A DNA stretch of 62,327 nt, counting the filler, from Aduncisulcus paluster (Eukaryota), in NCBI GenBank assembly GCA_024181965.1. It is 6 parts of 6 records of this genome, joined end to end, with 100 filler letters (N's around TTAATTAATTAA, not from the genome) between each part and the next. Parts side by side here need not be neighbours in the genome. Positions count along the whole stretch, not along the records: positions 1 to 14,490 come from BQXS01010908.1; 5 more parts are not named here. One strand, 5' to 3'. Numbering within the stretch: the stretch's first letter is position 1; each line of letters starts with the position of its first letter. This document shows positions 6,601-48,364 of the stretch, one piece after another. The notes beneath the pieces are model-generated. The model was not told the DNA's origin, ran no database searches, and worked only from the letters and a program-made list of their open reading frames with translations. The position numbers and the translations under genes were made by a program.

Positions 6601-6706
6601 ATTTTAATTGCCAAATATAACTATTAAGAAAGAATAAGTTAATTGAATACCAAGAAAAGATCATTTTAAAAAATCGGGAGCGAAAAGGTAGTCAAACTAC
6701 CTATTT

Positions 6707-7696
6707 TTATTCTAAATCAGTTACATCTATGAGGTTTATAGGGGTTGTTTGCTTTATAATAAGTTGAGCACAGGCTTTTGAGGCTGGAATAACAATTTGA
6801 TCTTTGGTTGGATTAGAAAACACTATGAATAAATGACTTGATGACGGATCATCCTCATAAATATTATGCATTGTTGTTAAAATTCTTAACCCTCTTTTAG
6901 CAAGCGATGATCGCTCACCAATGGCAATATATGAATTTTTAGGAGGCAGAATTTCTAGTGCAGAATCGGCCAATACAATCGATTTTGGAGGAACTATAAA
7001 CTCTTGTCCCATCCATAGATCATATCCAGCGGCTTCTTTGCTTCCTCCTCGTTTTGGGAGAATAGCGTCACTTTCTCTCATAGAAACACGGAGATATTCC
7101 GAAATTAATCTATAATCTTGTGGCTCTTTCACGAATGATGACGCAGTTTTTGCAATGGGGGTGGGAATTTTTGGGGTCGAGAATGAAAATGAAGAACCTG
7201 ACTTGATCTTATCAAGCAATGATGGCGATGGAGGCACATATATCGGTTCCACAACAGGGGTAACGCCTGGAAGATATGCAACATCTGGGTGATTATGACC
7301 TTCAACAAATTTGTATAAGACACAGATTTGACAGACTGGATTTGAGGGTATAGAAATTCCTCTCAGCTTGGCTTCCGCTTGAGAAATCATTTTAACATGG
7401 AAAGTAAGAGCATATTCACATGGAGGACGTGAAGAATGATATTCAAATAGAGAGAATCGCCGCTTTCCAAATTCATGCCCATATACACATTTAAATCGAT
7501 AAGAAAATCCATAGACACAGGTTTTTCTAAATATACATTTCATTGAAGAGTGCTTATTATTTGGAATTACATCGGGAATGAACCTAGTGCAAAGCCACTT
7601 TTCCATTTGACGAATATCGGGAATAATATCGAGATCAAAATACTTTGGAGCAGCATACAACTCGGGTTTTAATTCAAAATCCGGTTTTCGGCCCAT
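6707..7696 (-). CDS. FAR1/WRKY-like zinc finger fused to a degenerate dUTPase domain
   Basis: N-terminal YRFKC...PPCEYALTF...FVEGHNHP. C-terminal AAGYDL (motif I), ERSSLA (II), ACAQL (IV); motif III is degenerate and motif V is absent. ATG at 7696 (alternative 7729). Confidence 0.7.
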   Translation of the reverse strand: MGRKPDFELKPELYAAPKYFDLDIIPDIRQMEKWLCTRFIPDVIPNNKHSSMKCIFRKTCVYGFSYRFKCVYGHEFGKRRFSLFEYHSSRPPCEYALTFHVKMISQAEAKLRGISIPSNPVCQICVLYKFVEGHNHPDVAYLPGVTPVVEPIYVPPSPSLLDKIKSGSSFSFSTPKIPTPIAKTASSFVKEPQDYRLISEYLRVSMRESDAILPKRGGSKEAAGYDLWMGQEFIVPPKSIVLADSALEILPPKNSYIAIGERSSLAKRGLRILTTMHNIYEDDPSSSHLFIVFSNPTKDQIVIPASKACAQLIIKQTTPINLIDVTDLE

Positions 7697-7804
7697 TATA
7701 AAATTTAGGAACACAGAGAAAATGTACATTGCAGAAAAAAAAATTCTGCAATCACTTGAATAAGAATAAATAATGAAAATAAAACCGCAATTATATTCAT
7801 TTTA

Positions 7805-7824: not shown

Positions 7825-8060
7825 ACGAATATCGGGAATAATATCGAGATCAAAATACTTTGGAGCAGCATACAACTCGGGTTTTAATTCAAAATCCGGT
7901 TTTCGGCCCATTATAAAATTTAGGAACACAGAGAAAATGTACATTGCAGAAAAAAAATTCTGCAATCACTTGAATAAGAATAAATAATGAAAATAAAACC
8001 GCAATTATATTCATTTTAATCGGAAAAATCATAAATTTATTCTAAATATACACCACCAAC

Positions 8061-8877
8061 TTACAGAACTCCAACAGAATGCAACTTGGCTTGCAAAGCT
8101 TCGATTCTAGCGTCTTTTAACTGAACAAGCTGTTCAAGTTTCCTTACTTTAACTTCTAACAGATGATTACTCTCTTCAAGGGATCTGATTCGCCTTTCTC
8201 TCTCTTCAAGGACAGATGGAGGAACAGCAGATGACATGGGCATAGAATCACCCATTCCTTCAAATGTAGACCGACCTGGAGTGCCTCTTTGAGAAGAGAA
8301 TAGGGGTTGAGGCTGAGAATCCGATTGAGAAAGATGGCCAGAAGGGGCTTTGTGAATCTCTGGACTAAGGTCGGTAGAGTGCATCGCAATAGTTCTTTGG
8401 ATATCCAAGAGTACCTTCTCTATAGCTCCTGGAACGCATTTTATGATCATATCAATGTCCTGAAGACTAACTGGGTGGAAAGGCTTCCTTTTAAACACTT
8501 TTTCTATAATAGGAAGTGAATTAATTAAAAATATGGAGAAATATTGGAAATATTATTTACATGGACAACGATAAAATTATTTTTTGTGAGGGACAGCGAA
8601 AAATATCAAAAATATAACTTCTAAAAATGAACATACGATTAAGAGTTTGCCAATTGTATTTCTTCTGAGCTACGCTATTAGCACCCGAGTAATTGTGAAG
8701 TTCTACTCTTGAAGGGAAAAAATGATTGACAATTTGAGCCATTAAAACCCCATCAGAGAAGTCACGAGCAATGTTCTTCTTTGGCCTTGTTAAAGGAATC
8801 TCATCGACCCAAGAGTAGAGTGCCTGAAGAACGTCGTCACTAAAATGGTATGCCACGGACTTTTTGGATTGCATCAT
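8061..8877 (-). CDS. SPEF1: SPEF1/CLAMP-like flagellar CH-domain protein; two exons (8877-8637, 8503-8061)
   Basis: LYSWVDEIPLTRPKKNIARDFSDGVLMAQIV..VELHNYSGANS..KKYNWQTLN. Splicing gives WQTLNQKVFKR. C-terminal coiled coil LEVKVRKLEQLVQLKDARIEAL. Confidence 0.9.
8504..8636 (-). other. Spliceosomal intron (133 nt) in SPEF1
   Basis: GTATGT donor at 8636 and TATAG acceptor ending 8504; removal restores the frame and the conserved LNQKVF. Confidence 0.85.
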
Positions 8878-9182: not shown

Positions 9183-12100
9183 ATGAGTAGAGAATTACGC
9201 CATTTAGGTGTTATTGAGTATATTTTAAAAGGAAATCCGACTGTATTGGGGCCATATGATGCATCCAATGACCATCGATTAAGAAAAGTGTTATTATCAC
9301 TTCTTTCAAGGTTTTTCGATCTTTGTGAAGGGCCTCGTGCAGAAAATACAAGTGAATATTGGTCTTCAGTGGGGGTTCAATTGAAATGTGCGATTGAAAT
9401 GCTCTTCATTGAGGTGGCAGAATGTGCTGGAAGTCCACCGCATCTATCGCGAGCCTATTCATTTAGTCAATGGGCAAATGATGTTAAATATACCCAATTA
9501 GGAAAGACACGAGCATGGAATACTCTCCTTCAATTGTTTTATTCGGATAGAGCCCACCTGTGTGAATTTTTTTCTTCTCACTCAATGTATGGCTCTTCAA
9601 TCGATTCGAGGTCATTGGCTCGGTTATCTTCATTCGGTAACAGGTTTTTCTCTTTCCTCCATCATATTATTACTTCAATGTTCAACTATATAGATGTCGA
9701 AACTGGACCGAATAGTTCTCGTAGGCGAACCCTATACATCATTAGTAGTGGTCGGAGTGAGAGCCGTTCGAGCACAGGTAGTGAGTCATTCAGTCGATCT
9801 GGAACTCATAGAAGGGAAGAAATGGATGTTCCATATGGGATTGATATGGGTTCAACCGATCGCGATTCGAAACCTTTTGGTGCTTCAGCTTCAGCTTCGT
9901 CTCAGCCTCGGATGGAATACGGGTCATTCGCTTCAATGACATACAACATGTCCGTTCCATCTCATCCTGGAATGACTGGATCTGTCTTGGATCCTTCCCA
10001 TGGTCGTTCGGAGGAGCCAAGAGACCACATGTTCGATATGCCCATGTTTAAACCCAAGGGAGACTCTGGAGACGATTCTGATAAGAAAGATAAAGGGAAG
10101 AAAAGGTGTTTTGGCCAGATCTGTCTCCAAGATGTTGAGATCGTCGATAAACCCCAATACTCGTCCTCTAGCTCTGTTGAAGAAGACAAAAACGATGGAA
10201 CTGGTGCGAAGAAAGAGGAGAAGAAGAAATGGGGGTTATTTGGACTCTTGCGAAAATGTGGAACCACAGACAAAGAGATTCTTGAGCAACAATTGATAGC
10301 AAAGAAAGGAGAGTCAGAGTATTTATTGTCGGCTAAAGACGATAAAATAGACGGTCACGATGGTGATGATGACCAAGTTGATATCACAAAGCCTGTAGGA
10401 AGTGGGCCTGTTTTGCACAGTCCCGAAGTCAAGCCTGGTCCAGAGCTACCACTTCAATCTAGTAAGTCTACTGTACCTCATGGCAAACATGTGGGAGAGG
10501 TTGATTATGGGTCATTTGGTCCTCCCGTTCTGCCCTTTCCTGATATCCCTAAGGATTCCATCGAAGGACAACATTCCACTCTCACAAGCACTCCATGGGG
10601 ATCATCGGGTGCTTTCTTCCCTCCATTCAAATCCTCAATGACTCAGAGTGGAGAAGGTGGGTCTACACATAATCTTACACAGCATCCATCCTCCTCCATG
10701 CACCATTTCACTGGTGTGAGGATACCTAACCCGATGCTGGGCGATGGATTTCCTTCCAACCCTTCGACTATGATGCCAGATTACTGGGGAGATCCCAGAC
10801 AACACCCGTTGACGTCGCATGGTCATCCTTCATACGGACTAACACACCGATCCACGTATATATCTGATTCGGCTCACACTGATCCTAGTATAGCTCACTC
10901 TGATAGCACTCTCTCTTTCCTCGATGAAGACTCTTTTACTCAGCCCAGTGCCGGGGAAGGAATGCGTGCCAATCCTGATCGTTCGCATGGATATGCCGAC
11001 AAATCTCGGTTCCCTCAGCATCCGTTACAGCAACATTACTATTCTGGCTCCTCCCATATGCCCCAAGTTCCAACGGGAATGCACGGAATGGCCCATAACC
11101 CATATGGACACGCTGCTTACTCAAGACCTTGGGCCAGGGATCCCATGAACTATAGATACCCGGGACACGTTCCTTACCCACACCGAGGTATGGAACAAGA
11201 TACTGTGGCACCGATGGGAAGATATGACTCCGCATCCTCGTTGAGTGGCATGAAAGCCCCCATTCCAGGTGGTGTCAGCCTGACTTCTGATCATGGCGAC
11301 TCCCTTCATCATTCAGGAGATACTCCCCGGGGATCCGATGGACACCCTCCAAGAGGTTCTTTTCCTCAAAATGGGAGGGATTCAAAGCCTCGTCTGCTCG
11401 CCTCCCTGAGTGTTGATGTGTTCTTGAAATCTGACTTCCAGCGCCGCATCCGGAATTCATTCGCCCATGGAATTGGGGATGCGATGAATCTTCTCGTTAG
11501 AATGTGTGGCAGAAGGGTGCATGGTTCCATCAGCATGACTCTCGATGGATCCTTGAGAGCTGTCAATGATGTTAACTTGAACAACGGGATTGTCGTGTTA
11601 TGTCCTGGGAAGACAAGTGGAAGGAATGCACCGAGGCATGCTTTGTTACATTACACCTATTCCTTATCATCTCAGCTTAGAGAGAAGCTCAAATATAAAG
11701 GTGGATCCAGTGGCAGTAAGGGGAATGATGACGAGAGTTCAGAATCGAGTACCCATGTCCAAAGCCATTCCATCTCTTCGGATCATCCTTCTCACTCGAC
11801 GTCTATTGTTGATCAACACACTCATGGCAAGCGGGATGCTCTGAGCTTCGGAGATGTGTTCGTTTGTGTTATTGTCGATGGTGTGCTCGGTGAAGAGGAA
11901 ATGACACAGGCTAGGCAGGTATTAAACGTTCCAGGTAAAATCCCGATTGTGATATCGCACAGTGGAGTCGTGAAANNNNNNNNNNNNNNNNNNNNTAAAG
12001 GTGGATCCAGTGGCAGTAAGGGGAATGATGACGAGAGTTCAGAATCGAGTACCCATGTCCAAAGCCATTCCATCTCTTCGGATCATCCTTCTCACTCGAC

Positions 12101-16298: not shown

Positions 16299-19200
16299 AT
16301 GGAACACGACAAAGAGGAAAAGGAAGAATTTTCGAGGTCAACTCAAAGCGATCATGACAGACGAGATGATCCTGATGATTCGGAATATACAGCATCAAGT
16401 ATCTCAATTCATGACATTCCACCGGGTAGATCTGAAAAAGAAACTGTAATTGCTCAGGGTATGGATAAAAGGAGATATTCTGAACCAGATTTTCAATCAC
16501 ACATCCATAAAATACATGACCACAGATTAGGTAGTTCGAGTTCTCGTTGGACAGATCAGTATGGTCTTCCTGGTCTTCCTTCAATCAATGCTCCTCTTCA
16601 TAATCCTTCATCTTCTGAACAACAACGATCAGGCAAATCCGATCGTGTATCCAAATCTAATGGTATAACGTTGTCATCTGCCGATTCTATCACTTCATTG
16701 TGCATCATTGACAGGGGTGGATTTGGAGAGTTGTTGCTTGTCCATGTTGGTATTAAGGGTGTTGAATCCCCATGCGTTTTGAAGAAGATGATTCATGTTG
16801 GCAGTTTAGATCTTGTTCGAAAGTGTCGAAAAGAGTTCAAAATACAACGTAAATTATACAAATGCTGTAAGAATCGTATCCCATATCCTATATTTATTCT
16901 TGATCTTCTTAATAAGGAATACAAGGGTAATTTTGGATTCGTCATGGAGTTTTGTGCTGGAGGTAATGTGAAAGAGTTTGCCAGAAGTTGGTGTCGTCTA
17001 AAAGATATATCTTCCTCAAAAGGTTTGCAGAGGAGTGGAATTGGAGAGAAAGAGGAAGAAAAAGATTCTGAAGGTTCAAGTGGCGAGTATTCTGAAGACT
17101 CAATGTCAGATCTTGATTCATTCTCTCATCATTTTGATCCCATGACTCTTGACCCTCTTAAAGTGAGTGCTCTCTGTGTTGAGATCATTGAGTGTCTGGA
17201 TGATGTATTTAAAGCTAATCCATGGTTCATTCATCGAGATATTAAACCTGAGAACTTTCTTATTAAGGTTGATTCTAAAAATAATGAGTGTTCTGTGGTT
17301 CTTTCTGATCATGGTCTCGCTCAAATCAAAAGATCCGTGATCGAATCTTCTCAATCTTCTCTTGAAAATATTTCTTCGGATTCTTCTTCCTCGAGTACAT
17401 CTCAGAAAAGTTCAAAATCATCAACAGGCCATATTTTATGCGGGACTTATGCGTATGACTCATTTGAAGCTCTTCAAGGCATGCACTCTCAAAAAAGTGA
17501 CGCATATTCCCTCGGCATTACCATTCTTGCTTTGTTCCAGTGTTGTAATCCATTCTACAACATGCGTTATTTGCTGAATGCTATTTCTTCAACTGAATTT
17601 GTTGGAAAACTCTTAGAACTGCTATCTAAGGGAATTGGTCCAAAACTCTCCAGCTCTCCTCTTTTTGCTTCAATTTTATCGATTAACAGTAAGGAGTTTG
17701 AACCTGTTTATTCATGTCTGAATGAAGTGTTCGAAGGATTGACAACTTTAGAAGTTGGCAAACGTATGAGTGTTCATGAAGCCTGTGAGAAAGTTCAATC
17801 CATCAAACCTCTTCTTCCAAAGATTGGAGAAGGGTGGGAATGTCCATCCATTGAGGATATTGTGGAGGCTCACCTTGTCAAGCATAAAGGTAATTCTGGA
17901 TGTATTGTGGAAGCAGCATCTTATGAAAGTGGATTTGATGGACAATCATCATCTCAGGGCCAAAGTGTTGCTCCTTATCAAATTCCCAAGGAACATGGAA
18001 AATTTACAAGCTCAGCAACCTTTAAATCAGAAGAAGATTTGAGGAAAAAAGACAAGAAAAAAGACGAAAACCCTCCCCAGTCACCCCAAATCATGAAACC
18101 ATATTCGATTCCTGACTTCCAAGCATTAGTTCGAGATATTCAACTCACTTCATCTCAAGCTTCTGTCAGATCACTTTTCAAGTCATCTTCTCCTCGTCTT
18201 ATGAATAATTTTGAGGATTGGAACCAAAAACAGTTCTTCTCAAACCCCATTGGAGATTCATCATCTTCTCTTGCATCTGATAGAGCTCTATTCACTCTTT
18301 GTTTCGAATGTTTATCCCTATTTGTTCAGCATGAATGTGCTAGTTCATCTTCTGGCTTTGGTGATGATGATAGTGATCGTTCTATATTGACACTTGATGA
18401 ATCCTCTCTCATGGAATTGATTGGGACATTTTTAACACCAATGATCCGAGTTGAAGCTGAATTGAGCAAGATGGATACTGCTGAAGGATCTGGTGAGAAG
18501 TGTGTCATGAGTGCAATTACAAAATCATTGGTTCGAATTGTTTCAATTGCCGAACAGAAAGTCAAATCTTTTCAAACAAAACTGAGTCCTCAAATATCTT
18601 CTGTTTGGTTAAGAATTATGAAAAGTCTAGATGCATTAGTAGATGAAATTAAGAAATGCCCTGATTCAGAATCAAAATTCAAACTCTACCATGAACATCG
18701 AGATGATATTCTTTCTGTCTTCTTTGCATTTCAATCGAAGAGAGAGATTGAAAAGCACAAGAGAGAGATTGTTCTTTGTGTTCACTGTTTAAGTTGGTTT
18801 GTTAGACATGTTATTTCTGGAAATAATATCTTTCTCCCTATTCCTGATCTGAATGATCTCATTGACACTTTCATTGGTCATCTATCAAGATGTGAGGAAG
18901 TGTTGGAAGGAGATGTTGATGAAGAGTATTGTAGGATTTGTGTGAGTTATACTTTCAAAGTTAAAGATGAAAGAGATCACTTCCTTCCAAAGATCTCTCC
19001 CACTCTCCAAAGTATTCTTGAGAGAGGAAGTAAGGAGAAGTTGGGAGAAAATATTTCTCGATATTTATTAACAACTCTCAGAAACATCTCTATCTCTCCC
19101 TCTTCTTCCATTAAATCCTCTATTATCACCCTTATCAACCCATATATCAGAGATTGGTTGAGGATATACAATGATAGTGAGTGTTATGGAAGATGGATGT

Positions 19201-20645
19201 ATATTCTATCAAAAATCACCCTTTCAAGTGATGATGAATCCCCAAACAAATCCCTCTGTTCTGAAGCTTGGCCTCTCTTCCGCCCTGTTCTTGATGTTGT
19301 CAAGAGAGAATTTGTTGGGGATAAGATTGTAGGAGATAGGTATGAATATGTTTTATTATTCTTCTCTAACTTATGTTGTGATCCATCACATGCCCTTGAA
19401 GTCTATGATAATGTTAAAGATCTGCTTGATGGGTGGTTAGTTGTTATAAAGAAGAAAGAACATAAATCAGGAATCAATTTATGGTCCAGACTAATTTCTA
19501 TGTTCTCCACGATTCCACATCTTGTTCCTAGGATATCCCCTAAATATGATCTCGATATTGACTGGTGCAAAAATAATGGGGGTCGGCGTGGAGATTATAT
19601 AAGATATCTTGAGAACTGTAATTTAATTTTCCGGTTAGATAAATTAGTCAAGGCAATCAAAAGATGCACTGATATTGAATCACTATCAAAACTCTTTGTT
19701 GAACGACGAAACGAAATTCTATCTGTTTTTCTCGCCTATCAATCAAAGAGTAAGATTAGAAGGCACAAGAGAGAGATTGTTCTTTGTGTTCACTGTTTAA
19801 GTTGGTTTGTTTGCCATGTTATTTCTGGAAATAATATCTTTCTCCCTATTCCTGATCTGAATGATCTCATTGACACTTTCATTGGTCATCTATCAAGATG
19901 TGAGGAAGTGTTGGAAGGAGATGTTGATGAAGAGTATTGTAGGATTTGTGTGAATTATACTCACAAAGTTAAAGATAAAAGGGATCACTTCCTTCCAAAG
20001 ATCTCTCCCACTCTCCAAAGTATTCTTGAGAGAGGAAGTAAGGAGAAGTTGGGAGGTAATGTTGCTATAAATTTATTAATGACTCTCAGAAACATCTCTA
20101 TCTCTCCCTCTTCTTCCATTAAATCCTCTATTATCACCCTCATCAAATCATATATCAGAGATTGGTTGAGGATATACAATGATAGTGAGTGTTATGGAAG
20201 ATGGATGTATATTCTATCAAAAATCACCCTTTCAAGTGATGATGAATCCCCAAACAAATCCCTCTGTTCTGAAGCTTGGCCTCTCTTCCGCCCTGTTCTT
20301 GATGTTGTCAAGAGAGAATTTGTTGGGGATAAGATTGTTGAGAAGGATTATTATGATGTTTTATTCTTCTTCTCAAACCTGTGTTGTGATCCCTCTCATG
20401 TTCATGAAATATATGACAACATTATAGATCTTCTCGATGGTTGGTATGAAGCTGTGAAGAAGAAGAAACATGAATGGGGAATCAGATACTGGTCTAAACT
20501 CATTTCCATGCTATCCGCTTCTCCATCTCTTGTTTCTCTCTTGTCTCCTAAATATGACACCCATATGGAGTGGTGTAAGGATAACGGAGGATGGAAGAGT
20601 GACTATTCAAAGTATTGCAATAATTGTACATCCTTTCCAAAGTGA
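16299..20645 (+). CDS. Ser/Thr protein kinase with two C-terminal 336-aa helical repeats
   Basis: IDRGGFGEL, VLKK, VMEFCAGG, HRDIKPEN, SDHGLA, CGTYAYDSFE, SDAYSLG. Tandem repeat with 1008-nt period from ~18630. Confidence 0.9.
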   Translation: MEHDKEEKEEFSRSTQSDHDRRDDPDDSEYTASSISIHDIPPGRSEKETVIAQGMDKRRYSEPDFQSHIHKIHDHRLGSSSSRWTDQYGLPGLPSINAPLHNPSSSEQQRSGKSDRVSKSNGITLSSADSITSLCIIDRGGFGELLLVHVGIKGVESPCVLKKMIHVGSLDLVRKCRKEFKIQRKLYKCCKNRIPYPIFILDLLNKEYKGNFGFVMEFCAGGNVKEFARSWCRLKDISSSKGLQRSGIGEKEEEKDSEGSSGEYSEDSMSDLDSFSHHFDPMTLDPLKVSALCVEIIECLDDVFKANPWFIHRDIKPENFLIKVDSKNNECSVVLSDHGLAQIKRSVIESSQSSLENISSDSSSSSTSQKSSKSSTGHILCGTYAYDSFEALQGMHSQKSDAYSLGITILALFQCCNPFYNMRYLLNAISSTEFVGKLLELLSKGIGPKLSSSPLFASILSINSKEFEPVYSCLNEVFEGLTTLEVGKRMSVHEACEKVQSIKPLLPKIGEGWECPSIEDIVEAHLVKHKGNSGCIVEAASYESGFDGQSSSQGQSVAPYQIPKEHGKFTSSATFKSEEDLRKKDKKKDENPPQSPQIMKPYSIPDFQALVRDIQLTSSQASVRSLFKSSSPRLMNNFEDWNQKQFFSNPIGDSSSSLASDRALFTLCFECLSLFVQHECASSSSGFGDDDSDRSILTLDESSLMELIGTFLTPMIRVEAELSKMDTAEGSGEKCVMSAITKSLVRIVSIAEQKVKSFQTKLSPQISSVWLRIMKSLDALVDEIKKCPDSESKFKLYHEHRDDILSVFFAFQSKREIEKHKREIVLCVHCLSWFVRHVISGNNIFLPIPDLNDLIDTFIGHLSRCEEVLEGDVDEEYCRICVSYTFKVKDERDHFLPKISPTLQSILERGSKEKLGENISRYLLTTLRNISISPSSSIKSSIITLINPYIRDWLRIYNDSECYGRWMYILSKITLSSDDESPNKSLCSEAWPLFRPVLDVVKREFVGDKIVGDRYEYVLLFFSNLCCDPSHALEVYDNVKDLLDGWLVVIKKKEHKSGINLWSRLISMFSTIPHLVPRISPKYDLDIDWCKNNGGRRGDYIRYLENCNLIFRLDKLVKAIKRCTDIESLSKLFVERRNEILSVFLAYQSKSKIRRHKREIVLCVHCLSWFVCHVISGNNIFLPIPDLNDLIDTFIGHLSRCEEVLEGDVDEEYCRICVNYTHKVKDKRDHFLPKISPTLQSILERGSKEKLGGNVAINLLMTLRNISISPSSSIKSSIITLIKSYIRDWLRIYNDSECYGRWMYILSKITLSSDDESPNKSLCSEAWPLFRPVLDVVKREFVGDKIVEKDYYDVLFFFSNLCCDPSHVHEIYDNIIDLLDGWYEAVKKKKHEWGIRYWSKLISMLSASPSLVSLLSPKYDTHMEWCKDNGGWKSDYSKYCNNCTSFPK
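18755..20640 (+). repeat. In-frame tandem duplication, period 1008 nt
   Basis: CACAAGAGAGAGATTGTTCTTTGTGTTCAC at 18756 and 19764; matching antisense ORFs at 18977 and 19985. Confidence 0.95.
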
Positions 20646-44582: not shown

Positions 44583-46149
44583 CTATACCAAACCACGCCT
44601 ACGAGATACACACGAACGGCGAGTAAAAGGAAATAGGAGACGATGGTTGTAGATAGTTTCTGGAGTGGCATGGCCACTGCAGCGGAGCTCATAAGATTGA
44701 CGATTCAAAGCATTGCCAAAGGCAAGGGAGCGAGCAAGCACTACCTTGAGTTCCTCTATGCAGCGAGATGAATGATGACGTTGAACCAAGGCAAGGAATT
44801 CTTGGAAAGATTCACCAATAACACCTGTTGAAGAAAATATCATGGGATAAAAGTCGAACGAGTAGCGAGGGTCAATCTCACTACCAGGAGGAGGACGGGG
44901 CGCGTAGCTACTACGCTTTTTTGTCTCCCTTTTCGTAAGACACCCATGAATAATTCCCCTTCCGAGCTCAACAATAGCAGTCGCAGAGTTTCCAGTTGCA
45001 ACGATTCTCCGTGTGAAGTCAAGGATGATATCCGTCGAAATAGCCTCAGTGATTTGAGCATCAAATACAAGATTCCGAGACCAGTCACTTGTACCAAATG
45101 CATGAGCAACAATGTCTGCTCTCAGAGTTCGAGTGTTTAGATGCCGGAGGAAGTGAGTGTCTTCTTGAGTAATAGGAAGACCCAAGACTTCCTCTAACCA
45201 GACAGCAGATGCGAGCGACCTTAAGTCGTCATGTCTGCCTATAATGTTCGGGCGAATACTACGGCATACCCTAGAGTGATTGGAGGAAGAAACGAAGTCA
45301 AGTTGGGAACCACAATGTGGGCACTTCTCGGTTACACTGATGCCAGGACACAAGTATCCATAGCGATCAGCAAGCAGCATCCTAAAGGATGGAGCATTCA
45401 AGAGGCGTCCAACGACAGTTTTGAGGAGAGAGGAAAATATGTTGGAGGGGTCGGAAGCAGCAATAAGAGAAAGAAGTTGAAGAGATGCTCTAGTACCTTG
45501 AGCACGAGTTCTAAGAAGATCATCTGTGTCCTGATCAATGTGTTCAGGGTCAATAAGGATGTCAGCATCGTGAGCCTCAACTATCGTGTTCCTCAAAGAT
45601 AGAACAAGAGAGTTGAAAGAAGCTTCATGGAGCTGATGTTTGTATTTTTTGACACCAGGTTTAGTAAATACAGAACTCAGAGGATTTTCAAAGGTCGGGC
45701 AAGGGGTATAACCAGTTGTGTCATCAGCCTCTTGTTCCTCAGCCCACTCGAGAAAATCAAGAATTTCTTCTTCAGCAGGAGATAAGTGAGTGGCAGAGTC
45801 CACGGGTCCAGGAGAGGTTTGATTGACCTGGGGTGCGGAAGACTGAGGGGGAGGTTGAGAGGAGACAGGTATACCTGGATCATCCACTGGGGAGTCACCA
45901 AGAGGAGAGGGAGCATCAGGGGCAATGGGGGTAGACGGGGGGTTGATCTCAAACTGAGAAGTCAGACATGTATCCGCCCAATTATGAAGCTGGAATTTAA
46001 TCCAACTTTTATGTTCGGGAGATGAGACTATGAATCCGCTACCAGATGAAACAAGAGTGTCACCAGCTTGGAGAGGGGTATTATCAGCGACCTTAAAAAG
46101 GGCGATACAAGCATCGTGAATTTCTTGAAGAAGAGGGATGATGGCGGGA
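44583..46149 (-). mobile_element. 3' part of an RLE-type (CRE/R2/NeSL-like) non-LTR retrotransposon ORF: CCHC knuckle plus restriction-like endonuclease
   Basis: CPHC...HSRVC, RHD, E, RADIV, VFDAQIT, RETKKRSSY, YPMIFSSTG. The frame stays open upstream to the contig end (46148); the RT domain is not in view. Confidence 0.8.
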
Positions 46150-46249
46150 NNNNNNNNNNNNNNNNNNNNNNNNNNNNNNNNNNNNNNNNNNNNTTAATTA
46201 ATTAANNNNNNNNNNNNNNNNNNNNNNNNNNNNNNNNNNNNNNNNNNNN
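46150..46249. other. Artificial contig linker
   Basis: N44-TTAATTAATTAA-N44. Confidence 0.98.
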
Positions 46250-47949
46250 CTCTTGCAGGCTCAACAGTGGGTGCAACAGAACGATGGCCGATTCCTATAG
46301 CTCCGTCTGAGAGTCCAGATATAAACGAGCGGTATGGTTTGTTAATAGATGATGGAATACTTTGAGAGTGAGGGGAGTGTTGAGCAATAGGGGATTTTGA
46401 TCTCTTGTATTGTAATACTGGAGATCTTGACATGAGTCTCTCTTTCTCTTCTTCAATCTCAGCTTCATGACGTCTAATGTTATCTTCAAGCTCTCGTTTA
46501 CGTTCTTCTTCCTTATTTCTCTGGGAATCCTCCATATGTTTTCTTCTAACCCATTGTTCTTGCATTCTTTTCTCCTCTTCCTCCTTTCTCTTCTCTTCAA
46601 TTTGGAGTTTTTTCCGAAATTCAAAATGCTCTTGGGCCAAACGTTCTTCTTCTCTTTCATATTCCTCTTTTCTTCTACGTTCTTCAAGTTCCACTTCTCT
46701 TGCACGAACACGTTCCTCCTCTTCAATCTTTTTAAGCTCTTCAAGACGTTTCCACGCTTGAAAGCGTTCCAGTTCAGCTTGTCTCTCTTCCTCTTCTCGC
46801 TTCCTTATTCTTTCTTGTTCTTCCTTCTTTCTCATTTCATTCTCTTCCTCTTCTCTTCTCTTTCTTTCCTCCTCCTCTCTCCTCTTCTTTTCTTCCTCCT
46901 CTCTTCTCCTTTTTTCTTCTTCCCTTCTCCTCTCTTCTTCCTCTTTTCGTCTTTTTTCCTCCTCTTCTTCCCTTCTTCTCCTCTCTTCTTGCTCTTTCCT
47001 TCTCCTCTCTTCCTCTTCCTCTTCTTTCTTCTTTCTTCTTCTTTCCTCCTCCTCCTCTTCTCTCCTCTTCCTTTCTGCATCTTCCCTCCATCTCCTTTCT
47101 TCCTCTTCTTTCTTCCATCTTCTTTCCTCTTCTTCACGAAGTCTTCTAAGTTCTTGCTCTTTCCAAATTATCTCCTCTTCTTCTCTTCTTCTTCTCCTTG
47201 CTTCTTCTTCTTTTCTTCTCCTTTCTTCTTCTTCTCTTCTTCTCCTATTTTCTTCCTCTTCTCTCCTCTTCTTTTCTTCCTCTTCTCGTCTCCTTTTTTC
47301 TTCTTCTCTTCTTTCCTCTTCGATTAGTCTGGCTCTCTTCCTCTCTTCTTCTTCTCTTTCAATTTCCATCCGAATTTGGGCAGCAATAGCTTGACGCTCT
47401 TCCTCCATTTTTCTTTCCTCTTCTTTTCTTCTTTCTTCTCTTCTCCTTTCCTCTTCCCGCTGCCTCTCTTCTCTCTGTCTCTCTTCCTCTTCTCTCCTTC
47501 TTTCGTCTTCTCTCTGTCTCTCTTCCTCTTCTCTCCATCTTTTTTCCTCCAAAATCCTCCTCTCTTCCTCCAAAGCTCGTCTTTCTTCCAATAATTTCTG
47601 CTCAGCCAATCTTCGTTCTTCTGCACGCCTTTTATCTTCAGCAATCCGTAATTCCTCCTCTCTTCTTAAATCCTCTTGTCTTTGTCGCTCTTCTTCTCTC
47701 CTTCTCTCTTCTTCTTGTCTCCTTTGCTCTTCTTTTATACGTTTTTCACGTTCGGCCTGTTCTCTTAATATTTCTTGAATTCTTCTCTCTTCAGCCTCTC
47801 TTTTACGTTCTTGTTCTTGTTTCTCAAGATCATCTAACTTAACTTGAATCAGATCAGAATCGATAGGGAGTGGGATACATGAAATAGTTCTTAGACGTTC
47901 GCAAGAAAACGAAGACGGAAATGATTCCGTGGTTTCGTCTAGATCGTTC
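46250..47949 (-). CDS. E/R/K-rich low-complexity protein (single-alpha-helix/coiled-coil-like); start exon unresolved, 3' truncated
   Basis: Hundreds of residues of EEEERRRR-type alternation. The frame extends upstream of 47609 to a candidate TAG acceptor at 47950. Confidence 0.75.
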
Positions 47950-48364
47950 CTATTTTATCGAAGATAAGTGTTAATTAAGCAAAAAATATAAGAATTTCAT
48001 TAATAAATACCACGTTCGAAATACCAGGGGAAAACTTTAACAAAAGCACAAAATTTGCATCTATTTGAATATATATTGAACATACGTTGAAAATACTAAA
48101 CTAGAATATATGGTGGGCTTTTTGGGTTACGTTCAAGACGACCTTTTTTCCCTATCGAACCTCTTCTTTTTACCCAACACATATAATATTTGCAACAGGC
48201 AAAATACATACATGAAAAGATAAAATTATTTATTCAAATAACATGATTACGACTAACGGGGGAGATATTACAAATTCATAAAATATCTTCCAAGTCACCG
48301 TAATAATCTCATTTATTGGATTGTAGAACAAATATTTAGAAACTAGATGGATGAATATGCCGAA

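What the first reader, a model, noticed from the sequence alone, without database searches (positions are those of the whole stretch)
6707..7696. FAR1/WRKY-type zinc finger fused to a pseudo-dUTPase
Seen: C81, C104, H145, H147 (ORF-track numbering) in a YRFKC...C...HNH pattern, a Pro/Ser linker, then a dUTPase fold keeping motifs I, II and IV. Motif III (GVIDxDY, catalytic Asp) reads HNIYEDD, and the protein stops before the motif V P-loop arm. Established: FAR1/WRKY-GCM1 fingers are DNA-binding domains related to Mutator transposases, and trimeric dUTPases need motifs III and V; dUTPase folds have been reused for signalling (phage Dut-Stl, herpesviral dUTPase-related proteins). Inference: a trimerising or nucleotide-sensing transcription factor. 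I do not recognise this fusion.
Basis: partly seen in the sequence, partly recalled or inferred. Interest (0 to 1): 0.7.

Follow-up and report, generated by a model that had tools for sequence, protein, structure and literature searches.

The report
dUTPase split between two complementary genes
This protist gene is probably not a dead enzyme but one half of a two-gene dUTPase: it keeps the active-site parts that a second, related gene has lost and lacks the parts that gene keeps, so only a mixed complex could be active, and both halves carry a zinc-finger-like domain.

Summary
The 329-aa protein (P0001) has a C-x22-C-x40-HxH N-domain, a linker and a dUTPase fold with motifs I, II and IV. Motif III is broken, V is absent, and an unspliced transcript contig spans the stop. 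This matches how a trimeric dUTPase site is shared among subunits (III from one, I/II/IV from the next, V from the third). Neither homotrimer has a full site; a 1:2 P0001:P0002 trimer has one. These are the only two trimeric-dUTPase genes found in the assembly, which also holds a dCTP deaminase and a uracil-DNA glycosylase. Ten of 46 fused triple dUTPases show the same coordinated losses. A complex model scores 0.86 (best control 0.15), probably by likeness to solved trimers. Best reading (0.7): an obligate heteromeric dUTPase, herpesvirus-like in logic but on two genes. The FAR1/WRKY-GCM1 call fits by pattern only. Activity, partner expression and DNA binding are untested; one species only.

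The parts
6707..7696 (-). Intronless CDS, 329 aa (P0001): the I/II/IV-donor subunit of a proposed heteromeric dUTPase. Its partner P0002 (291 aa, motifs III and V) lies outside the window at G000:C12635:12130-13005 (L003:991-1866, +).
7280..7696 (-). N-terminal domain (residues 1-139), shared only with the paralog; WRKY-GCM1-like (FAR1/AFT insert type) by pattern
   Evidence: BLASTP E 1e-7 to P0002; score 86 against a maximum of 57 in 2000 shuffles; Atlas features and AF2 topology of the paralog's domain; no Pfam hit
7418..7489 (-). C70 and C93 with a 22-residue insert holding KRR (paralog: C75-x6-C82)
   Evidence: family features from PMC1702500
7289..7297 (-). H134-x-H136 (paralog: H111-x-D113)
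7103..7279 (-). Pro/Ser/Thr-rich linker, residues 140-198
6710..7102 (-). Trimeric-type dUTPase domain, residues 199-329; it ends after the arm's swapped strand and before motif V
7016..7030 (-). Motif I, A223-L227, intact (D226)
6899..6913 (-). Motif II, R262-A266 (R262 and S263 kept; G to S, as in 6 of 63 references)
6845..6868 (-). Degenerate motif III, H277-P284 (catalytic Asp reads Glu, Tyr reads Pro)
6761..6781 (-). Motif IV, S306-L312 (Q311 kept, Arg lost)
6680..7706 (-). Unspliced contig of run X1 covering start and stop

Best explanation
P0001 is one of two non-identical subunits of an obligate heteromeric dUTPase. A dUTPase gene gained a WRKY-GCM1-like N-domain, was duplicated, and the copies divided the active site. 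P0001 supplies motifs I, II and IV (D226, R262, S263, Q311: Mg and phosphates). P0002 supplies motif III (D229, Y232: uracil/deoxyribose hairpin and catalytic Asp) and the motif V arm. A trimer of one P0001 and two P0002 has one complete site (III from one P0002, V from the other); with a folded-back arm a single P0002-P0001 interface would do. SHOWN: the motifs, their complementarity, the shared N-domain, an unspliced P0001 transcript contig, and only two such genes found in the assembly. FROM THE LITERATURE: which subunit gives which motif. INFERRED: co-assembly, 1:2 stoichiometry, catalysis, and any role of the fingers (DNA tethering, nuclear targeting or assembly).
For: (1) PF00692 and two protein queries find only these two genes in G000. 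(2) P0001 keeps 10/14 of I/II/IV and 2/19 of III/V positions; P0002 keeps 3/14 and 17/19 (Fisher p 6e-4 and 2e-4); 0 of 63 references fall that low on either set. (3) The split matches the site geometry in PMC12524310 and PMC6819664; 1 of 100 random 2-plus-3 loss patterns allows a full site. (4) Asp-to-Asn abolishes turnover without changing binding, and loss of motif V cuts kcat about 720-fold but Kd about 3-fold (PMC4827122); P0002 keeps both. (5) 10 of 46 fused triple dUTPases lose III, the I/II face and V once each, one per domain; their I/II-less domains read xxxLA at motif II like P0002. (6) Complex model, two P0002 domains plus one P0001 domain: score 0.86, best of 3 controls 0.15; the mark was reached by 116 of 157 solved and 2 of 215 mismatched pairs (eukaryotes 39 of 65 and 2 of 126); runs agree in at least 82% of contacts, partner pLDDT at least 87. 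The interface holds P0002 224-231 of one copy and P0001 R262, S263, Q311. The pass may come from likeness to solved homotrimers. (7) Need: longer contigs with eukaryote-type neighbours encode a dCTP deaminase lacking the motif III Asp and a family-1 UNG; the dimeric dUTPase fragment tested is 100% identical to an Arcobacter gene.
Against: No activity, binding or co-expression data; P0002 expression was not examined. The complex job used alignments of canonical dUTPases and had no homotrimer or 2:1 control, and it does not place the motif V arm. P0001's kept face is worn: motif IV has lost G and R, whereas the motif-III-less domains of the fused triples keep the Arg; 17 of 63 references also lack it. 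The reference set was found by words shared with P0002, which favours its motif III score, and positions are not independent. The assembly is in 23,235 contigs, so an intact third gene could be missing. Thymidylate synthase appears only on 330- and 446-bp contigs of untested origin and ThyX was not found, so the metabolic need is not fully shown. No ortholog pair was found elsewhere.
Confidence: 0.7

Rival explanations
1. One reading: catalytically dead DNA-binding regulators. The dUTPase folds oligomerise the fingers or bind dUTP/dUMP at one composite site as a sensor.
For: Both genes keep a WRKY-GCM1-like domain. A sensing site would keep the same complementary residues. Motif IV Arg is lost in P0001. 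dUTPase domains are fused to unrelated proteins elsewhere (coronin, PMC3203266).
Against: P0002 keeps the catalytic Asp and the P-loop arm, which serve turnover more than binding. No other dUTPase of the protist was found although a dCTP deaminase and UNG are present. P0002's last metal ligand is Asp, not His, and DNA binding is untested.
Confidence: 0.15
2. The two proteins work apart or are decaying; the real dUTPase is missing from the fragmented assembly, and the complementarity is coincidence or a relic of a former heteromer.
For: 23,235 contigs, and the genome search scores only first-look candidates. The two dUTPase domains are only 17% identical. The genes are unlinked.
Against: Both ORFs are intact, and P0001 is covered by a transcript contig. 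1 of 100 random loss patterns is rescuing. Kept motifs are near-perfect while the rest is 33-36% identical to the closest references, which argues for current selection.
Confidence: 0.1
3. P0001 homotrimers are themselves a slow or altered nucleotide hydrolase, with E281 or D283 standing in for the catalytic Asp and no arm, as in dCTP deaminase-type members.
For: Acidic residues remain at motif III. Motif II reads RSSLA as in dCTP deaminases. Weak DCD scores.
Against: The hairpin Gly, Tyr and RGE are lost. Acid-rich remnants also mark the motif-III-less domains of fused triples. It leaves P0002's mirror-image losses unexplained.
Confidence: 0.05

Closest known systems
Herpesviral monomeric dUTPases (EBV 2BSY, pseudorabies virus 8ZWQ; as described in PMC12524310)
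   Same: Duplication followed by complementary motif loss leaves one site: III from one domain, I/II/IV from the other.
   Different: There both domains lie in one chain and motif V follows the I/II/IV domain. Here they are two unlinked genes of a cellular eukaryote, V goes with III, and each has an N-terminal finger-like domain.
Homotrimeric all-beta dUTPases (PF00692; human 2HQU and other PDB matches)
   Same: Fold, motifs, swapped strand and predicted trimer contacts.
   Different: Neither chain has all five motifs; a homotrimer would have no site.
Fused triple dUTPases (Drosophila virilis in PMC12524310; Caenorhabditis, Bursaphelenchus, Halicephalobus and Durusdinium records)
   Same: In 10 of 46 records one site's motifs are lost, one per domain; these domain types mirror P0002 and P0001.
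   Different: Covalent order fixes their geometry and two sites remain. Here assembly is non-covalent, P0001 combines two losses and one site remains.
WRKY-GCM1 fingers, insert-containing family (FAR1, Aft1/2, Rbf1, MULE transposases; PMC1702500)
   Same: N-terminal helix, four predicted strands, C...C...HxH order, basic 22-residue insert in P0001.
   Different: No Pfam hit, no Trp in strand 4, HxD in the paralog, no transposase domain nearby; fused to a dUTPase.
Heteromeric enzymes made of an enzyme and a dead paralog, such as trypanosomatid deoxyhypusine synthase or AdoMetDC-prozyme (recalled, from no call)
   Same: Paralogs inactive alone and active together.
   Different: Other families; here both chains are predicted to give catalytic residues.

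Membership tests
Homotrimeric dUTPase | PF00692 fold | tested here: met
   E 1e-11 and 2.7e-12 for the paralog; PDB matches
Homotrimeric dUTPase | All five motifs in one chain | tested here: not met
   P0001 lacks III and V; P0002 lacks I, II and IV
Homotrimeric dUTPase | Five motifs available to one site across subunits | tested here: met
   Only jointly: 28 of 33 motif positions kept by one or the other; one full site in a 1:2 trimer
Homotrimeric dUTPase | Mg-dependent dUTP hydrolysis | not testable with these tools
   Needs an assay
Herpesviral monomeric dUTPase | Two fused domains, motif order III-I-II-IV-V in one chain | tested here: not met
   One domain per gene on different contigs; no second domain in the transcript contig
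dCTP deaminase | DCD profile above cut-off | tested here: not met
   PF22769 E 0.038, 14.5 bits against a cut-off of 27; a separate DCD gene exists
WRKY-GCM1 superfamily | Cys at end of strand 2, Cys at start of strand 3, HxH/HxC after strand 4 | tested here: inconclusive
   P0001 has C70, C93, H134, H136; the paralog model (pLDDT 64.6) puts C75, C82 and H111 at those strand ends but has D113. P0001's own model failed (pLDDT 30.8).
WRKY-GCM1 superfamily | Four-stranded core with a preceding helix (insert and HxC families) | tested here: inconclusive
FAR1 / AFT / MuDR DBD Pfam families | Profile match | tested here: not met
   No hit at E<=10 for six N-domain cuts; PF03101 and PF03108 find nothing in G000. 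Atlas features list FAR1 0.87, ZSWIM3_N, AFT, DBD_Tnp_Mut and ALS2CR8 for P0002, all under 0.9, and nothing for P0001.
FAR1 / AFT insert family | 20-70 residue basic insert between the cysteines; Trp in strand 4 | tested here: inconclusive
   Insert met in P0001 (22 aa, KRR) but not in P0002 (6 aa); Trp absent in both
WRKY-GCM1 superfamily | Zinc binding and DNA binding | not testable with these tools
   Needs metal analysis and EMSA or SELEX

The most novel reading that the evidence does not exclude
An active two-gene heterotrimeric dUTPase with a single composite site whose subunits all carry DNA-binding fingers of transposase origin: a sanitising enzyme tethered to chromatin, or a transcription factor switched by its own dUTP hydrolysis.
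Probability: 0.35. Interest if true: 0.82.

Novelty: new variant of a known kind. Interest (0 to 1): 0.68.

Why it matters
A 2025 review (PMC12524310, passages and section 2.1 read) lists homotrimeric, homodimeric and monomeric dUTPases plus fused pseudo-trimers; a natural two-gene heteromer is not in what I read. If real, it adds a quaternary type and gives an unfused counterpart to the herpesviral one-site enzymes. It is also a natural test of whether one site per trimer suffices and of where motif V comes from. It warns annotators that two 'dead' paralogs may be one live enzyme. The fused triples that lost one site suggest that this reduction recurs in eukaryotes.

Tried and rejected
Motif V exon or frameshift: none in six frames; transcript contig unspliced. 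A second genomic copy at 7826-8018 is an assembly overlap beside an N gap; 5 of 15 gaps in the window have such flanking duplicates. Dimeric dUTPase PF08761 hits on 483- and 310-bp contigs: the first is 100% identical to an Arcobacter gene, the second matches the same epsilonproteobacterial model. Orthologs: P0001 finds only itself among 1186 candidates; the N-domain profile finds the two proteins and one repeat protein among 1.84 billion representatives; metagenome scans gave nothing or a chance match inside a bacterial gene (L013); viral contigs gave nothing. Single-sequence AF2 of P0001 failed. Fold searches of the paralog's N-domain were inconclusive; a PDB sequence search gave 2 weak unrelated hits. 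No run is on record as RNA; X1 is read as RNA because two neighbours are spliced, and it may be the source sample. Ten literature searches (listings seen) showed no two-gene heteromeric dUTPase and no finger-dUTPase fusion; the library lacks most subscription journals, so this is weak. Three of four look-ups of earlier findings returned nothing. The own genome could be searched only with single proteins and families, which leaves a very divergent third subunit less well excluded.

Full report
1. What is in the window. The region is a compact, intron-poor eukaryotic gene run: a Rab-type GTPase, UFD1 and a CH_2-domain gene flank the finding. The ORF at 6707-7696 on the minus strand gives 329 aa (P0001). 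Residues 199-329 match PF00692 (E 1e-11) and solved dUTPases. Against 63 canonical domains (63 of 66 hits that gave a full domain) it keeps motif I 4/4, II 4/5, III 2/10, IV 2/5 and V 0/9. Run X1 is not on record as RNA, but its contigs skip two introns of neighbouring genes with GT-AG ends on the minus strand, and one contig covers 6680-7706 without gap or difference (8 of 43 pieces shown). So the stop is in the transcript and no motif V exon is added.

2. The missing half. A search of the own genome with PF00692 gave 2 matches of 2 candidates. The second is a 291-aa ORF on another contig (P0002), next to a PSD13-type proteasome gene; a source names it as a protein of Aduncisulcus paluster. 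It starts in register with P0001 and shares the N-domain (E 1e-7; score 86 against a shuffle maximum of 57 in 2000). No other credible relative of this domain was found among 1.84 billion representatives (3 hits: the two proteins and a repeat protein), so the fusion predates the duplication and looks lineage-restricted. Its dUTPase domain is the mirror image: I 0/4, II 2/5 (Arg and Ser gone), III 10/10, IV 1/5 (Gln gone), V 7/9. Searches with P0002 and with a triple dUTPase found the same two loci and no third.

3. Why the split matters. [quoted passage not shown] The product-binding residues are the motif II Ser, motif III Asp and motif IV Gln (PMC6819664, one passage): P0001 has S263 and Q311, P0002 has D229. 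Counting sites, both homotrimers have none; one P0001 with two P0002 has one; two P0001 with one P0002 has one only if the arm folds back. Given two losses in one gene and three in the other, 1 of 100 patterns allows a full site. The 1:2 form is also economical (inference): once P0002 lost its I/II/IV face, both motif III and motif V of P0001 served dead sites. P0001 ends just after the swapped strand of the arm, which the model places in the interface (residues 313-329), so it kept the structural part and lost the catalytic part.

4. Catalysis or sensing. In human dUTPase the motif III Asp-to-Asn change abolishes turnover without changing binding, loss of motif V lowers kcat about 720-fold but Kd about 3-fold, and sites work independently in engineered asymmetric trimers (PMC4827122, passages). 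P0002 keeps both elements, which favours an enzyme over a sensor. The cell also seems to need one. A dCTP deaminase with the catalytic Glu but Ala at the motif III Asp lies on a longer contig with eukaryote-type neighbours; this type is reported in metamonads (PMC10733785, passages). A family-1 UNG lies on another. The dimeric dUTPase fragment tested is an Arcobacter contaminant. Against this, thymidylate synthase was seen only on two tiny contigs of untested origin and ThyX not at all.

5. Natural precedent. The best foreign hit of P0002 was a fused triple dUTPase (P0003). Among its 71 best relatives, 46 have three domains: 25 are intact; 10 have lost motif III in one domain, the I/II face in another and motif V in the third (6 cleanly, 4 with a truncated or doubtful end); 11 are truncated or irregular. 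Named records among the 10 are Bursaphelenchus, Halicephalobus and Durusdinium. The set is biased because the query has this pattern. The I/II-less domains read xxxLA at motif II, like P0002; the motif-III-less domains keep acid-rich remnants, like P0001. Herpesviral monomeric dUTPases use the same III versus I/II/IV division within one chain.

6. Complex model. Two P0002 domains plus one P0001 domain scored 0.86 against a best control of 0.15 in 3 controls; the mark was reached by 116 of 157 solved and 2 of 215 mismatched pairs (eukaryotes: 39 of 65 and 2 of 126); runs agree in at least 82% of contacts and the partner's pLDDT is at least 87. The named interface includes P0002 224-231 of one copy and P0001 219-225, 260-263 and 311. 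I supplied alignments of canonical dUTPases, solved homotrimers exist, there was no homotrimer control and the arm was not placed. The pass shows compatibility, not preference.

8. Weak points. Nothing is measured. P0002 expression was not examined. P0001 has lost the motif IV Arg, which the motif-III-less domains of fused triples keep, although 17 of 63 references also lack it. The reference set favours P0002's motif III. The assembly has 23,235 contigs. Only one species is known. Ten literature searches showed no two-gene heteromeric dUTPase, but key subscription papers are not in the library. An earlier scan note on a split Dcd pair in a bacterium is a conceptual parallel only and was not checked.

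9. Verdict. Observation confirmed; interpretation partly supported. Most likely (0.7) an obligate heteromeric dUTPase with one composite site, encoded by two unlinked paralogs that share a finger-like domain. It works like the herpesviral one-site enzyme but is not a member of that group, nor a standard homotrimer. New variant of a known kind; interest 0.68.

Noticed in passing
P0003, P0071, P0083, P0093, P0097, P0106, P0109, P0110, P0117, P0121: Fused triple dUTPases that appear to have lost exactly one active site, in two different domain orders (nematode records versus dinoflagellate and unnamed records), suggesting independent origins. Not seen in the papers I read.
   Followed up: partly
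L019:1444-1995 (G000:C5120): dCTP deaminase with the catalytic Glu but Ala at the motif III Asp, in a eukaryote-looking context; it would make dUTP.
   Followed up: partly
L014, L015 (G000:C3776, C7926): Thymidylate synthase is found only as two overlapping fragments on 330- and 446-bp contigs and ThyX is not found; whether the protist has its own is unresolved.
   Followed up: partly
L006, L007 (G000:C3831, C7433): The assembly contains Arcobacter DNA (160 of 160 residues identical), so small contigs cannot be taken as host genes.
   Followed up: yes
window 7611-7804 and 7826-8018; also gaps at 11976, 25435, 26733, 32367: Sequence is repeated on both sides of five 20-base N gaps, an assembly artefact that creates false partial copies and false internal repeats in long ORFs.
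   Followed up: yes
window 8503-8637 and 2376-2564: Two GT-AG introns on the minus strand (133 and 187 bases) shown by run X1; the first joins the two CH_2-domain ORFs into one gene.
   Followed up: partly
window 16299-20645: 1448-aa ORF with a weak protein kinase domain (E 2e-12) and a long unannotated C-terminal part.
   Followed up: no
window 46000-48000: Extreme GC and AT skew (down to -0.59), probably low-complexity coding sequence.
   Followed up: no
P0130, P0132: Willow records with a RING finger before tandem dUTPase domains; may be annotation joins.
   Followed up: no
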